Below, one piece after another: positions 6,001 through 12,000 of a DNA stretch of 64,000 nt. Position 1 is the stretch's first letter, and each line of letters begins with the position of its first letter. The DNA is from Escherichia coli. Lineage in GTDB: Bacteria; Pseudomonadota; Gammaproteobacteria; Enterobacterales; Enterobacteriaceae. The stretch lies in assembly GCF_001677475.2 (NCBI RefSeq), contig NZ_CP012498.1; one strand, 5' to 3'. The position numbers were made by a program.

Positions 6001-9000
6001 TCAGAAAATGACAGAGCGCGAGCAAGTACCTTTATTGGAATCGCCAGAATGATGTTCAGCGGCTTCGCCCTGGTATTTTCTTTCGCCTCTTCTATGCCCT
6101 GCAGGACATTGTATAAATGTAACTCTGTCATACACGTTCGTAAGCGGCCCTCACGGCCCGACTGCGGGTAAATCCTTCAACCGCGTACAGCTCATTTTCA
6201 TTGCTGACAGACCGTATAGCCTTGCAGGACTGTCAACGCCAAGATTATTGGTCGTTTTGGGGCTGCGGACGATTTCCTGGACTCTCAGGAGATAAAACAT
6301 GTTTACTGAAGAAGAAAAAATCCGCGCCATTGAGCTTTATTTCAAATATGGTAAGAAGCTGGCCCCGTCGTACGCGAACTGGGCTACCCTTCGAAAAGAA
6401 ATCTGCGGCGTTGGATCCGCTCATGGGAAGCAGGTGGTGGCGCAAAAGAATCCATTCGTCATAAGCACCGTTACTCCGATGAGCAAAAACAGGTTGCCGT
6501 TGAACATTATCTTAACCACGGCTGCTGCCTGGCGTTTACCAGCAGAGCCCTGGGTTATCCCTGCACTGATGTGCTCGCTCGCTGGGTTAATGAAATTTAT
6601 CCCGACAGACGACGTATATTTACCAGTAAGGCCAACCCGGTTGCGCCCTTTGAACCAGAAGCCAAACGTCAGGCTGTCATGGCACTCTGTACACGACAAG
6701 TATCAGCCAGTGAAATCGCCAGGCGTATTGGTGTCAGTAGTGCGGTATTGTATAAATGGAAATATGAAATTATCGGCAACAGTGCTTACCAGACTATGCG
6801 TAAACATAACGAACCTTCCCTGGAGGCAGAACGCGATGCGTTGCGGGAGGAAGTCGCCCGACTGAATCAGGAAATACGCCGCCGGCAGATGGAGCTGGAT
6901 ATTCTGAAAAAGGCGGAGGAAATCATAAAAAAAGACCCGGGCATCAGTATCAATCACCTGAACAACAGAGAAAAAACAAAGATTACTGATGCCCTGAGAC
7001 AAACATATCCCCTGACAGAATTAGGTCTTGCCCGTAGCAGTTATTTTTATCACTGTGCTGCACTGAAGGCCGGCGATAAATACGCCACGATACGTACGAT
7101 GCTGACAGATATCTTTAACAGTAATTACCAGTGTTATGGCTATCGTCGCTTACATGCGATGCTCAGGCATGAGGGGGTACGGCTATCAGAAAAGGTTGTA
7201 CGCAGACTTATGGTGGAGGAACAGCTTGTCGTCAGCCGTAACCGTCGTCGCCGCTACAGCTCATATTGCGGAGAAATCGGACCTGCTCCGGATAACCTTA
7301 TCGCCAGAGATTTTAAGGCGGAGCAACCTAATCAGAAATGGCTGACAGATATCACGGAGTTCCAGCTCCCTGCAGGTAAAGTCTGGCTGTCACCGGTGGT
7401 GGATTGCTTCGATGGAAAAGTTGTGAGCTGGTCTCTCAGTACACGCCCCGATGCTGAACTGGTCAACACTATGCTGGATAGCGCTGTCGAAACGTTAAAT
7501 GCTGGCGAACGACCGGTGATACACAGTGACAGAGGTGGGCATTATCGCTGGCCAGGCTGGCTGGAAAGAGTGAATGCAGCAGGTCTTATTCGCTCAATGT
7601 CCCGTAAAGGATGTTCACCTGATAATGCCGCATGCGAAGGCTTTTTCGGCAGACTGAAAACGGAAATGTATTATGGGCATAAATGGTCGGGCATCACGCC
7701 AGAAAAGTTCATGCAGCAAGTGGATGCTTACATCAGATGGTATAACGAGCGGCGTATAAAATTATCGCTGGGTGCCGTCAGCCCCAAAATGTACCGCCAA
7801 CAATGCGGGCTGGAATGATAAAGCAGTCCAGGAAATTGTCCGCAGCCCCATTTGAAGTGCGCCCCAATAGTTAGACACCAGATCTGTAACTGAGGAGCGT
7901 ATGAGCAAATTTTCATTAGAATTCAAAAGGGAAGTATCCGAAAAATACCTGGAAGGTGAGCTGAGTTTGAAGTCTGTTGGAAAAATGTACAATATTGACC
8001 CCAGCACGGTAAGGAAATGGGCTTATGTTTACCGTAAGCACGGATTAAAAACACTGACTGGGCAAAAAAGACGTTATGACGATAACTTCAGATTGAATGT
8101 GGTCAGAGATGTTATTGATAATTCTCTTTCTATAAGGGAAGCTGCAGTGAAGTATGGGATCCCTGCTTTTAACACCATATCCAAATGGATTAAAAAATAC
8201 AGTGAGGTTGATTTTTCGATGAAGGGACAAAAGGAAGATTTGAGGCCGAAAACTCCTGCTGTTTATCAACGAAGTCGTTCGACACAACTGACAATCAGTG
8301 AACGGGAAGAACTTGAGTTGCTGAGAGTTGAGAACGCTTATCTAAAAAAGCTGAAAGCCTTAGCTCAGGAAAAATTACGATTGGAACAAAAGAAAAAGTA
8401 ATCATTATTAATGAGTTAAGGCAATGTCATCCATTATCACAATTACTGGTTATCGCGGATTTGCCACGTAGTACATTTTACTATCACGTGAAACGCCTTA
8501 ATGCGCCAGATCCATATCAACTTGTTAAACAAGTAATATTGAGAATATACCATCAGCATAAAGGGCGTTATGGTTATCGACGCATCAGACTTGCCTGCCG
8601 TAACGAGGGCATTTTACTTAATGGTAAAACCATCAGAAAGTTAATGAAGGAACTGGGTATCAGCTCACTTATCAGGCGCAAGAAGTACCGTGCCTATCGT
8701 GGAGTACAGGGGCGAACTTGTAATAATTTACTGAAGAGACAATTTTATGCTGACCGCCCAAATCAAAAGTGGGTAACAGATGTCACAGAGTTTAAGGTCG
8801 ATGGCAGGAAGCTCTATTTATCACCAATCATGGACCTGTATAATGGAGAAATAGTCTCATATAACCTTACTGAGCGCCCATTAGCATCAATGGTAAAGAG
8901 CATGCTATTAGATGCGGTAGAACAACTCAATAAAGACGATAAGCCCTTGTTGCATAGTGATCAGGGGTGGCAATATCAGATGCCTCGTTGGCAACGTTGG

Positions 9001-12000
9001 TTGAGTGATAATGGCATAACACAAAGCATGTCCCGACGTGGTAACTGCTTATATAATGCAGCAATGGAAAGCTTTTTTAGTACTTTAAAATCAGAATGTT
9101 ACTATCTAAATAAATACAATAAGTTACATCATCTAAAGCAAGATATAATTGATTACATTGAATACTACAATCACCATCGCATTAAAGAGAAACTCGATGG
9201 CATGAGTCCGGTTCAATATCGACTTAAACATTTTTCATAGGATGTCCAAGATTTGGGGCGCAGATCAATCCAGTCTGCATCCCAGAAATGGAAGATGTCG
9301 TTGAAGGACTGGTGTATGGCAATGAGCCGCTTGATTATCGAGTTCGGTGACCGCTTGGATGCTCACTTCTGAGAAAAGGTATTTACACAGAATCTTGAAC
9401 AGACTCTTGGCGTGGGAAAATTTCCGAATTCCAGGCGGCCCCCTTTATAATCTCGCCAGAGGGAGAATGAGATACGAACCGAATTGCCCTCTTCTGGCAG
9501 GACTGGTATATCTGTTGCCTGTAACTGTGGCATATATATGGGCTGGATAATAATGAATCAGCAGAATAATATAAAGAGAAATTTTTTACAATCGTTACGT
9601 AATACAACAGTGTTGTTACTCGATATTGCTTTAATTGAATCACTTAAGACTATCAATAGTGATCAAGAACAAATAAAAAATTACTACAGATTACAGGCTC
9701 ATATTTTCTTGAAAGATTCGAACCAGGTAACTCTGTTAATGGTGAAATAATTATACGTGCTTTGAAAAAAGATAACCTTGATGAGGATTTTATAATTAAC
9801 TTACTAACCAGAATAAAAGACGACAAATTTAGTGATACTGCTATAGATTTAACTAATGTCCTGGGTGCAATGAAAGAGTTTGTGAAAGAAGAACTTAGAT
9901 ACTACATGTCTTTTGAATCCAATTTTGAAGACTACTATATGCCTCTGATTAGCAAAAATATGGATTTTATGCTTGATTATGAAAAGTACATGAGGGATAC
10001 GATTAATTTAATAAACAAAAGCGCCCTGTCAGATGAAGAAAAAGAAAAAATGCTGCAAATAACTTACTTTTCATATGCAAGAACCATTGCAACTTATGTA
10101 GACTCTGCTTCAAAGGTATTTATAGAAGGTGCATATGGTATTTGTCATCTATATATTCTGAAAAAGATACTCAAAAATAAAAAAGTTCCTGAAAACATAT
10201 GTCGTATATTCAGAGAAGATTTAAAAAAAGCCAGTAAAAAAAGTATCGGGAGTGTTAAAAATATCCTGGAGGATTTTTTTTATTATCCTGATACTATTTA
10301 TCATTCACCTGACAGAAATAAACTGGAGGGAATGTATGATATATATAATGAGTTTGTTAAATGCCGAAATGAAATAGTTCATGAAAACATCGGTAAAATA
10401 GATACATTTAACTACATTATGACGTATTTTAAAGTATGTAATGATTTCCTCGGTGATATTTTTAATGAATTTTATTCAGGGGAAGCTCAGGACCTCTTAA
10501 TTGAAAATATTATTCATCTTTGTCTGAAGGTTACTAACGAGCGTAGTGATATACTGGAGAATTTATGTAAAAGTAAAAAAATCACTACCTGAAATGGTAA
10601 GAAAGATAAAACCATCCAGTTTTTGAACATCAGAAGGCAAAATCCATGACAGATGACCTGCCCCGCCAGTCTGGTTCAGGAATATAATGCGCAATTGTCA
10701 ACCAGGGGGCTGTCTGAATATCGAAAATTATTGTACACCAGGTCCACTTTTTAATCAGTTGTTGGTTCTCTGTAAAGTGCCTGAATTCGGCAAACCTGCG
10801 AAGTGCTGTAGCCCGTTGCATCTGCTGTACTACGTTCAGGTTGTCGCCTGAATCATTTCGGTGGGGGCCTGCTTTAACGGGCGGCCCCTTCTTCACTAAA
10901 AAGAGTTTCACGACATAGCGGGGAAGCTTTCTTCTTTGGGGGCGGTTTCGTTTATGGTGTTTAGCTGAACAGGCCATGACAAGCTGCTGCAGCCGTCAGG
11001 CTGCCTGTCCGACTTCAGTAACATCTGATTCAAATGAACAGCAACGAAATTATTTACTTTTACTGTCAGTTCTTTTAATTAAAATACCATTTTTATAGGT
11101 GACAGAACAAAAATCCTTATCAAATTTATCCAGCGGCGGAGGACCATCAGGAAAAAGTCTCTGTAGTAGTACAGCTGTCTGAACAGGTCCAAACTTGTCC
11201 AGGGCATATCCTGTTGCCTGAGGCGACATTTTGCTGAACACCTCATTAATATAACCTTTGACATACACCTCAGGAAGCAGTCGGGATAAACGGCAAACAA
11301 AACTGCTGCCTCCACCATAAGCGGAAAAACATGAAACAAGTCTTATGCAATGTATTGTCTGTAAATCCACGACCGTCTTAAGCCAGTCATGCAGCATTCC
11401 GGGACTATAAAGAGCATCACCAACGCAAAGCCCACCCTGACCACTTTTATAGGGACTGCCATGAACATCAATATTTAATCTGACATTACCTTTATGCATC
11501 TGCTTATATATTGTCAGAGGTGATTTTGTGTGATAAATGAACTTTATATCAGTCATTGGTTTTTTCATAACATTAATATCTCTTTATAAAATATTTTAAA
11601 CACTAATGTTCAGACAGCTTTACAATATATCACAACCAGCCATTACTGCAGTACACATTCAATGCGCCTACTGTTTCAGAAGGTATGCGAACGCATTTGC
11701 TGTCTCCGGAGTTCGCCCGGAAAACGAAATCTGTGGCTCAGCACCGATTTTGATGATAAGCCTGTAACCGACATGCCCCTGACGTCGGGTGCTGGCCGTC
11801 TTTATCCTTGTTCCACTGAATGAAGAAACGTTTTTCCGTTGGATATACAATACAGAGCCTGCATACAGTATCCTGTGTTATTTTTGCTCAGGTTTATATT
11901 AATTTATTACTGCATATTATTAATGTCGGAAATGCCTGGGTTCGTATGAATACAGATATTAGCAATAGTAAATAAAATACCTGTTTTCTTTATTTAACGG

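What the first reader, a model, noticed from the sequence alone, without database searches (positions are those of the whole stretch)
6258..9267. Two different IS3-family elements inserted end to end (2 bp apart), plus a truncated inverted copy of the first at 424-1335
The IS3-like element (6258-7850) and the IS150-like element (7853-9267) abut with only 2 bp between termini. A partial inverted copy of the first (424-1335) lies ~5 kb away, nested in yet another IS3-family fragment (1-423). Inverted copies can mediate inversion of the intervening ~5 kb, which includes the TA module. The IS150-like orfA/orfB junction has an A-rich slippery sequence consistent with programmed -1 frameshifting.
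Basis: seen in the sequence. Interest (0 to 1): 0.3.

Follow-up and report, generated by a model that had tools for sequence, protein, structure and literature searches.

The report
Two abutting IS3-family insertion sequences
Two ordinary insertion sequences, one dead and one nearly intact, sit 2-3 bases apart in a transposon-littered stretch of an Escherichia/Shigella-type F plasmid, with a broken inverted copy of the first about 5 kb away; this is routine plasmid debris, although the first element has an unusual second, outer pair of ends.

Summary
Window 6259-7849 is a 1591-bp copy of a common, unnamed 1604-bp E. coli IS3-family element ("IS-1", 97.6% identical to E. coli copies). It is dead: a 1-bp deletion at codon ~23 and a 12-bp deletion. 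Window 7853-9267 is a 1415-bp IS150-group element ("IS-2", 99.8% identical to E. coli plasmid copies). It has a canonical A AAA AAG -1 frameshift site at 8344-8350. Window 429-1331 is an inverted 3' fragment of IS-1 (~97.6% identical) that abuts, but is not nested in, another IS3-family fragment (1-428).

Empty-site comparisons add detail. IS-1's own ends are GGGG...CCCC with a 3-bp target duplication, so the spacer is ATT (3 bp), not 2 bp. IS-1 also sits inside a small palindromic MITE-like element whose TG...CA arms move with it. The window keeps the left arm (6231-6258). IS-2 replaces the right arm after its first 3 bp.

Neither IS has a target duplication here, so later rearrangement occurred. 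The junction is absent from 72,556 plasmids and 5,426 E. coli genomes. Inversion of the toxin-antitoxin segment is plausible, and a complementary haplotype mosaic hints at past exchange, but it is unproven. Overall this is ordinary IS accretion.

The parts
1..428 (-). 3' part of a third IS3-family transposase gene (rve core, C-terminal 142 aa), cut by the window edge and interrupted at 428/429 by the IRR end of the partial IS-1 copy.
   Evidence: Translation. NF033516 E 4e-53 and Pfam rve/rve_3/rve_2. It is 93% identical to copies in L005 and L017. Homology to the intact gene in L017 runs up to the junction (..ACG|TATG..).
429..1331 (-). Truncated inverted copy of IS-1: the 3' 903 bp including the right inverted repeat (IRR at 429-454). 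It has no left end and no outer arm.
   Evidence: Inverted repeats I1 and I2, alignment A1 and BLAST. The same truncation junction 1331/1332 is present in Escherichia sp. plasmid L003 and relatives.
1332..6230 (.). Plasmid backbone segment between the two IS-1 copies. It holds an IS2 terminal remnant (3711-3977), a MarR-like ORF (4384-4716), and the RHH antitoxin (5106-5390) with its ParE toxin (5390-5665).
   Evidence: It is part of a collinear match (window 429-6230, 98.8%) to plasmids of Escherichia sp. 10290 and relatives.
6231..6258 (+). Outer left arm (TGTCAACGCCAAGATTATTGGTCGTTTT): half of a small palindromic MITE-like element ('T') in which IS-1 sits. It is the true outer terminus of the unit that inserted here.
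   Evidence: Homologous 28-29-bp arms ending in TGACA flank IS-1 in L009, L010, L011, L001, L004, L006 and L017. L003 backbone homology stops exactly at 6230. In L010 the arms plus core are one insertion with a 4-bp duplication.
6259..7849 (+). IS-1 core, 1591 bp: a dead copy of a 1604-bp IS3-family element that normally encodes one 510-aa transposase. A T is deleted between 6363 and 6364 (frameshift at codon ~23), and 12 bp are deleted between 7023 and 7024 (removing LRVL).
   Evidence: The GGGG..CCCC ends with a 3-bp TSD are shown by L011 against the empty site L013 and by the ATA repeat in L004.
7850..7852 (.). Spacer ATT: the first 3 bp of the lost outer right arm.
   Evidence: Right arms elsewhere begin ATTACTGTC (L010), ATTTACTGTC (L001) and ATTATCGTC (L017).
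7853..9267 (+). IS-2, 1415 bp, IS150-group IS3-family element. orfA is 7901-8401. The slippery heptamer A AAA AAG is at 8344-8350, with a hairpin at 8357-8367 / 8412-8422. The orfB frame runs to 9240, and the fused OrfAB is 446 aa. It has no target duplication here.
   Evidence: It differs by 3 nt from the reference copy, all non-synonymous (E269V, A354D, D385Y).
9268..9443 (+). 3' remnant of an IS256-family transposase gene (..IQSASQKWKMSLKDWCMAMSRLIIEFGDRLDAHF*) fused to the right end of IS-2.
   Evidence: 99% match to a stretch annotated as an IS256 family transposase pseudogene in L007. That fragment extends further upstream in L007 and L008 than in the window.

Best explanation
This is an insertion-sequence accretion zone on an IncF-type Escherichia/Shigella plasmid, built in steps.

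1. Shown: a unit made of the IS-1 core inside its small palindromic carrier (outer arms with TG..CA ends) inserted into the plasmid backbone at 6230/6231.
2. Inferred: the IS150-group element IS-2 then landed in the outer right arm, 3 bp from IS-1's right inverted repeat.
3. Inferred: a deletion or IS-2/IS-2 recombination at IS-2's right end fused it to an IS256 remnant. This erased the rest of the arm and any target duplication.
4. Shown: the inverted 903-bp IS-1 fragment at 429-1331 is an older, separate insertion into a third IS3-family element. It shares its truncation junction with related plasmids.

IS-1 here cannot make its transposase (early frameshift plus a 12-bp deletion), and the fragment lacks a left end, so neither copy is autonomous. 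IS-2 has intact reading frames and a standard -1 frameshift signal (A AAA AAG plus a hairpin 6 nt downstream) that would fuse OrfA and OrfB into a 446-aa DDE transposase. One of its three substitutions hits a conserved motif.

The two IS-1 copies offer ~0.9 kb of ~97.6% inverted homology. RecA-dependent recombination between them could flip 1332-6958, which includes the RHH/ParE module. A complementary haplotype mosaic suggests the copies have exchanged sequence at least once.
For: Identity and family of both elements.

Defects in IS-1.

Inner ends and 3-bp TSD: removing the core plus one AAG from L011 reproduces the empty site L013 exactly across the junction. The intact L004 copy has an ATA repeat.

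Outer arms move with the core: removing arm + core + arm + one ATGT from L010 gives 300/300 identity to many E. coli DUF4942/DUF957 loci.

The carrier exists alone: L013, and L020 flanked by a CAAA repeat.

Backbone breakpoint: L003 homology ends exactly at the arm's TG terminus, 6230/6231.

ATT matches the start of right arms in L010, L001 and L017.

IS-2 makes 4-5-bp duplications elsewhere (TTTT, TCAAC) but has ATT versus ATC here.

The IS256 remnant extends further upstream in L007 and L008 than in the window.

Partial copy: the same truncation junction occurs in L003, and the junction with the 1-428 gene is at the inner end.

Frameshift site and hairpin: z = -2.5.

Haplotypes: the full copy is L004-type at 6984-7179 and at 7845, but common-type at 7776-7817. 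The partial copy is the exact complement.
Against: Neither IS has a target duplication in the window, so the order of events rests on comparison with other copies, not on direct evidence.

A 3-bp identity (ATT) is weak on its own.

The haplotype mosaic could come from recombination with other IS-1 copies in the population. L009 and L017 show intermediate haplotypes, and the site at 7845 does not fit a single crossover.

No reads were available, so inversion isomers and assembly correctness could not be checked.

No closer relative of this replicon exists in the collections searched (best 98.8%).
Confidence: 0.8

Rival explanations
1. Reverse order. IS-2 was resident first, and IS-1 was drawn to its terminal inverted repeat. 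IR-targeted insertion is described for IS911 and IS30 (my own knowledge). IS-1 would have landed at the very tip of IS-2.
For: If IS-1 is read as TGGGG..CCCCA, it is flanked by TTT (6255-6257) and TTT (7851-7853), the latter including IS-2's first base. In L004 another IS-1 copy abuts the end of IS2 with a 2-bp spacer, the same geometry.
Against: Empty-site comparison puts the IS-1 ends at GGGG..CCCC, and the base before GGGG varies among copies (T, A, G, C). With those ends the flanks are TTT and ATT, exactly as in L010 where no IS-2 is present. The left outer arm is present and the backbone breakpoint lies at its outer end, so IS-1 arrived inside its carrier, whose right arm begins ATT.
Confidence: 0.12
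2. The two inverted IS-1 copies form a composite transposon (429-7849) that carries the toxin-antitoxin module as cargo.
For: Both outermost ends are intact right inverted repeats (429-454 and 7825-7849). A stability module lies between them.
Against: The flanks are ATA and ATT, so there is no duplication. Related plasmids carry the partial copy plus the same 4.9 kb without the second copy. The two copies come from different IS-1 lineages. Neither encodes a transposase. The block 429-7849 was not found as a unit elsewhere.
Confidence: 0.04
3. Assembly artefact: the IS-1/IS-2 junction, or the orientation of 1332-6958, is a mis-join between repeats.
For: The junction is unique: no place covers it in 5,426 E. 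coli genomes or 72,556 plasmids. Repeats of 0.9 kb can confuse short-read assemblers.
Against: The junction joins the exact termini of two unrelated elements that share no sequence. Transposition produces that; repeat collapse does not. The flanking structure 429-6230 is reproduced in several independent complete plasmids.
Confidence: 0.04

Closest known systems
Unnamed 1604-bp E. coli IS3-family element (PGAP 'IS3 family transposase', e.g. the 510-aa product at L010:342-1874; a 90% cluster with 1567 members)
   Same: The window copy is 97.6% identical in DNA across its full length, with the same 25-26-bp inverted repeats.
   Different: The window copy has a 1-bp and a 12-bp deletion, so it is a pseudogene. 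The ISfinder name could not be determined with these tools.
IS150 of E. coli K-12 (insJ/insK, 1443 bp)
   Same: IS-2 shares the architecture: a ~170-aa OrfA with two HTH motifs, an A AAA AAG -1 frameshift site, and an rve OrfB. OrfB is 55% identical to InsK and the motif YLKKLKALA is shared. IS-1's catalytic region is also 44% identical to InsK.
   Different: IS-2 is 1415 bp against 1443 bp. OrfA is only 26% identical and the inverted repeats differ. It is a different element of the same group, not an IS150 isoform.
IR-targeted or IS-into-IS insertion by IS3-family and IS30 transposases (IS911, IS30; my own knowledge)
   Same: Two IS ends lie 2-3 bp apart. The same geometry recurs with IS2 next to another IS-1 copy in L004.
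   Different: No transposase activity or target preference was tested. No sigma-70-type junction promoter was found facing IS-2. The two elements are different.
IS1397 / ISKpn1 (IS3 family, IS150 group), which insert into palindromic REP units, and MITEs in general (PMC1525189 for REP-targeting IS elements)
   Same: The IS-1 core is repeatedly found in the centre of a short palindromic element, in both orientations, with a 3-bp duplication.
   Different: The carrier is a 46-52-bp TG..CA palindrome with its own 4-bp duplication, not a REP unit. Carrier plus IS also transposes as one unit.

Membership tests
IS3 family | DDE transposase with an rve (integrase core) domain preceded by HTH domain(s) | tested here: met
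   NF033516 scores 425 bits for the intact IS-1 relative and 390 bits for IS-2 OrfAB (cut-off 160). Pfam finds rve, rve_2/3, HTH_21, HTH_Tnp_1 and HTH_28.
IS3 family | Two overlapping ORFs joined by programmed -1 frameshifting at an A-rich heptamer | tested here: met
   Met for IS-2: orfB is in the -1 frame, A AAA AAG at 8344-8350 is in register, a hairpin starts 6 nt downstream (z -2.5), and the 446-aa fusion equals the annotated product. Not met for IS-1: intact relatives have one 510-aa ORF with an in-frame A AAA AAA run. The 'programmed frameshift' label on L011 is a 1-bp deletion in rve.
IS3 family | Terminal inverted repeats of 20-40 bp ending 5'-TG..CA-3' | tested here: inconclusive
   IS-2 is TGAAG..GATCA with inverted repeats of ~25 bp. 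The IS-1 core has 25-26-bp repeats, but its duplication-defined termini are GGGG..CCCC. TG..CA occurs on the outer arms instead.
IS3 family | 3-5-bp target-site duplication | tested here: not met
   In the window, IS-1 has TTT against ATT and IS-2 has ATT against ATC. Other copies meet it: AAG and ATA for the IS-1 core, ATGT for arm+core, TTTT and TCAAC for IS-2. The window copies are therefore rearranged, not non-members.
IS150 group (for IS-2) | Long OrfA (~170 aa) with two HTH motifs, and closest similarity to IS150 proteins | tested here: met
   OrfA is 166 aa with two stretches matching HTH_28 plus an HTH_Tnp_1 hit. BLASTP gives 55% to InsK and 26% to InsJ over the full length. No phylogeny against other IS3 subgroups was made.
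Composite transposon | Two IS copies with functional outer ends, a flanking duplication, and the unit found elsewhere | tested here: not met
   The outer right inverted repeats are present. The flanks are ATA and ATT. Relatives have one copy only, and there is no intact transposase.
Recombination-driven invertible segment | Inverted repeats plus evidence of both orientations | tested here: inconclusive
   The inverted homology is 891 bp at ~97.6%. A complementary haplotype mosaic is suggestive. Only one orientation can be seen, and no reads or alternative isomers exist in the databases.

The most novel reading that the evidence does not exclude
The common E. coli element represented by IS-1 may be a two-layer mobile element. 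The 1604-bp IS has unusual GG..CC termini and a single unfused-by-frameshift transposase ORF. It preferentially inserts into the centre of a 46-52-bp palindromic MITE with TG..CA ends. The MITE-plus-IS unit then transposes using the outer ends. Both pairs of ends would therefore be active, and the MITE centre would be a hot spot that also attracted IS2 and IS-2, which would explain the 2-3-bp abutment seen here. I found no description of this in the searchable literature, but I could not consult ISfinder.
Probability: 0.35. Interest if true: 0.45.

Novelty: already known. Interest (0 to 1): 0.2.

Why it matters
As found, it matters little. IS pile-ups on large Escherichia/Shigella F-type plasmids are routine. 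Both elements have near-identical annotated copies in E. coli. The junction is a lineage marker at most.

Practical value:
- Correct boundaries and pseudogene status for annotation.
- A warning that 0.9-kb inverted repeats flank a toxin-antitoxin module and can confuse assemblies or flip the segment.
- The side observation that a very common E. coli IS has two nested, independently usable pairs of ends. If new, this bears on how IS boundaries are called automatically and on how MITEs and their parent elements interact.

Tried and rejected
1. I first read the 27 bp left of IS-1 as a remnant of an IS256 gene ('KIIGRF'), then of an IS66 tnpC or tnpA gene. I rejected both once ten flanks from independent loci showed a discrete 28-29-bp unit ending in TGACA with unrelated DNA beyond it.

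2. I considered that the arms are simply part of a longer 1661-bp IS. This cannot be the whole story. The carrier exists without the core (L013, L020), and the arm types swap sides between copies.

3. I considered that the arms are only a target. This also cannot be the whole story, because arm + core + arm is a single insertion in L010.

4. I tested whether the arms resemble the IS-1 core or IS-2 inverted repeats. They do not, significantly. Only arm A against the IS150 right repeat gave p ~0.001, uncorrected for 21 tests.

5. I looked for a hybrid junction promoter driving IS-2. There is none on the + strand.

6. Rfam finds nothing in 1-12000.

7. I searched for the junction in E. coli genomes and in PLSDB. 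It is absent.

8. I tried to name IS-1 from source annotations and the literature. Only the generic 'IS3 family transposase' appeared, and no paper contains its repeat sequences.

9. A single-crossover inversion does not fit the site at 7845.
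Full report
CONTEXT. The window is part of an IncF-type plasmid of the Escherichia/Shigella kind. Window 429-6230 is collinear at 98.8% with IncFIA/FIB plasmids of 'Escherichia sp.' and E. coli. The rest of the window carries ParM, IS21-like and IS110-family genes, two group II intron reverse transcriptases, and ORFs of the size and order expected of F-type transfer genes. No closer relative exists in the collections searched.

THE OBSERVATION. Repeat finding gives three results:
- 26-nt terminal inverted repeats at 6258-6283 / 7825-7850.
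- 26-nt repeats at 7852-7877 / 9243-9268.
- A long inverted match of 429-1254 with 7024-7849 (826 nt, 98%) plus 1267-1331 with 6959-7023.

The first element is 97.6% identical over its whole length to an element annotated 'IS3 family transposase' that occurs in 1608 of 5426 complete E. coli genomes. The second is 99.8% identical to 1415-bp copies on E. coli plasmids annotated with a programmed frameshift. The partial copy runs 429-1331 rather than 424-1335.

IS-1 (6259-7849).
- Intact relatives are 1604 bp and encode one continuous 510-aa protein. Its 90% cluster has 1567 members, all named only 'IS3 family transposase'.
- The protein has HTH_28, HTH_Tnp_1, HTH_21 and rve domains. It scores 425 bits on the IS3 model. 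Its catalytic part is 44% identical to IS150 InsK.
- An in-frame A AAA AAA run lies where relatives have their slippery site.
- The 'programmed frameshift' label on L011 and L012 is a 1-bp deletion inside rve.
- The window copy has lost a T between 6363 and 6364 (frameshift at codon ~23) and 12 bp between 7023 and 7024. It is 1591 bp long and cannot make the transposase.

TRUE ENDS OF IS-1 AND AN UNEXPECTED OUTER LAYER. I compared 17 IS-1 ends from 9 loci. Ten ends carry a homologous 28-29-bp arm that ends in TGACA, with unrelated DNA beyond. The arm types swap sides between copies. Three empty-site tests resolve the structure:
1. Removing the core (GGGG..CCCC) and one AAG from L011 reproduces, base for base across the junction, the sequence found in many E. 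coli. That sequence contains a 46-bp palindrome, TGTCAGCGCCAATGATATAAGACAGTCAAACATCATGGCGTTGACA. So the core is a transposable unit with a 3-bp duplication, and the palindrome pre-exists. The intact L004 copy has an ATA repeat at the same ends.
2. Removing arm + core + arm and one ATGT from L010 gives 300/300 identity to many DUF4942/DUF957 loci. So the 1661-bp unit with TG..CA ends also moves as a whole, with a 4-bp duplication.
3. In L020 the 52-bp palindrome alone is flanked by a CAAA repeat.

Palindrome-like sequences occur in 3019 of 5426 genomes, about half of the places on plasmids.

In the window the left arm is 6231-6258. The backbone shared with L003 ends exactly at 6230. This equals the first three bases of right arms elsewhere: ATTACTGTC, ATTTACTGTC and ATTATCGTC.

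IS-2 (7853-9267).
- orfA (7901-8401, 166 aa) has two stretches matching HTH_28. orfB is in the -1 frame.
- The heptamer A AAA AAG at 8344-8350 is in the X XXY YYZ register. A hairpin (8357-8367 / 8412-8422) starts 6 nt downstream (z = -2.5).
- The 446-aa fusion has the length of the annotated product.
- OrfB is 55% and OrfA 26% identical to IS150 InsK and InsJ, so this is an IS150-group element and not IS150 itself.
- It differs from the reference copy at three bases, all non-synonymous. One is D385Y in the conserved GNCxDN motif, so its activity is uncertain.
- Other copies have 4-5-bp duplications (TTTT, TCAAC). Here the flanks are ATT and ATC.
- To its right lies a 176-bp 3' remnant of an IS256-family gene. 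The upstream continuation present in L007 and L008 is missing here.

IS-2's right junction is therefore secondary: a deletion or a recombination between IS-2 copies.

ORDER OF EVENTS (inferred). Arm + IS-1 + arm inserted at 6230/6231. IS-2 then entered the right arm 3 bp from the core. A later rearrangement removed the rest. The reverse order, with IS-1 targeting IS-2's repeat, is less likely for two reasons. The core ends exclude the T at 6258 and the A at 7850. The flanks TTT/ATT are the same as in L010, which has no IS-2.

In L004 another IS-1 copy has IS2 abutting its right repeat after AT. This hints that the position is a hot spot for IS3-family insertion. That is speculation based on two cases. 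The IS-1/IS-2 junction itself is not present in 5,426 E. coli genomes or 72,556 plasmids.

THE PARTIAL COPY AND INVERSION. Window 429-1331 keeps the right repeat and is cut at 1331/1332. The same junction occurs in L003 and relatives, so the truncation is old. Its right-repeat end interrupts a third IS3-family transposase gene (1-428) exactly at the core end. That gene does not resume after 1331, so 'nested' is not shown.

The two copies differ at 21 of 891 aligned sites and belong to different lineages. The full copy is L004-type at 6984-7179 and at 7845, but common-type at 7776-7817. The partial copy is the exact complement. The stretch 7184-7775 is nearly identical, with 2 differences. This is the pattern expected from reciprocal exchange between the two copies: either two crossovers (flip and flip back) or a symmetric heteroduplex patch. 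It could also come from recombination with other copies, since intermediate haplotypes exist. Inversion of 1332-6958, which contains the RHH/ParE pair, is thus mechanistically plausible and weakly hinted at, but not demonstrated.

NEGATIVE RESULTS. There is no sigma-70-type promoter across the junction facing IS-2. There are no Rfam families in 1-12000. The arms show no significant similarity to the repeats of IS-1 or IS-2. No literature hit was found for the repeat sequences.

VERDICT. The only mildly unusual result is the nested double-ended structure of the IS-1 family, which needs ISfinder and a systematic flank survey before any claim of novelty.

Noticed in passing
window 6231-6258; loci L010, L011, L013, L017, L020: A 46-52-bp palindromic MITE-like element (TGTCA[A/G]CGCCA ... 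TGGCG[T/C]TGACA) occurs alone with a 4-bp flanking repeat, and also as the carrier of the IS-1 core. The core sits in its centre in either orientation. Related sequences are found in 3019 of 5426 E. coli genomes.
   Followed up: partly
L004:10082-10095 (E. coli plasmid CP099214.1): Another IS-1 copy has the terminus of IS2 abutting its right inverted repeat after only AT. This is the same geometry as IS-1/IS-2 in the window and may mark an insertion hot spot at this position.
   Followed up: partly
window 4740-4790: A single arm-like motif (TGTCAACGCCACTGTC..) sits next to the sequence TTGCCATTTTTTCATGCCCGC. The homologous site in L004 carries an intact IS-1 with an ATA duplication, so this looks like an unoccupied IS-1 target in the window.
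   Followed up: partly
window 2796-3674 and 14022-14893: A second inverted repeat pair (879-881 bp, 91% identical) brackets the whole IS-1/IS-2 region. The 196-aa ORF is intact in the second copy (14084-14674, no Pfam hit). In the first copy it is broken into two ORFs.
   Followed up: no
window 4790-4839 and 6124-6173: A 50-nt direct repeat (84% identical) with a G+C-rich hairpin (TCTGTCATACACG..GCGGCCCT.ACGGCCCG..). A further copy occurs in L003 next to the partial IS-1. It is possibly a repeated structural element of the plasmid leading region.
   Followed up: no
window 23819-25330 (-) and 29418-31085 (-): Two group II intron reverse transcriptase/maturase ORFs (RVT_N, RVT_1, GIIM); the second also has an HNH domain. 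The first overlaps the end of an IS21-like istB ORF (23173-23928).
   Followed up: no
window 9762-10592 (+): A 276-aa ORF in a 38% G+C stretch has a weak sub-threshold match to the RiboL-PSP HEPN domain (E 1e-5, 25.9 bits against a 28.4-bit cut-off). It is possibly a defence-type or abortive-infection-type gene.
   Followed up: no
window 9052 (IS-2 codon 385): All three differences between the window's IS-2 and the reference copy are non-synonymous. D385Y replaces the conserved Asp of the GNCxDN motif just upstream of the catalytic Glu.
   Followed up: partly
L002, L014, L015, L016 (other IS-2 copies): IS-2 copies elsewhere sit between short inverted motifs (..GTCCA[C/T]C.. and ..[A/G]TGGACAC..). 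This suggests that IS-2 also prefers palindromic targets.
   Followed up: no
window 3711-3977: A terminal remnant of IS2 (about 91% identical to the IS2 ends in L003). The mechanical ORF at 3611-4513 (-) covers the last ~90 codons of IS2 TnpB.
   Followed up: partly
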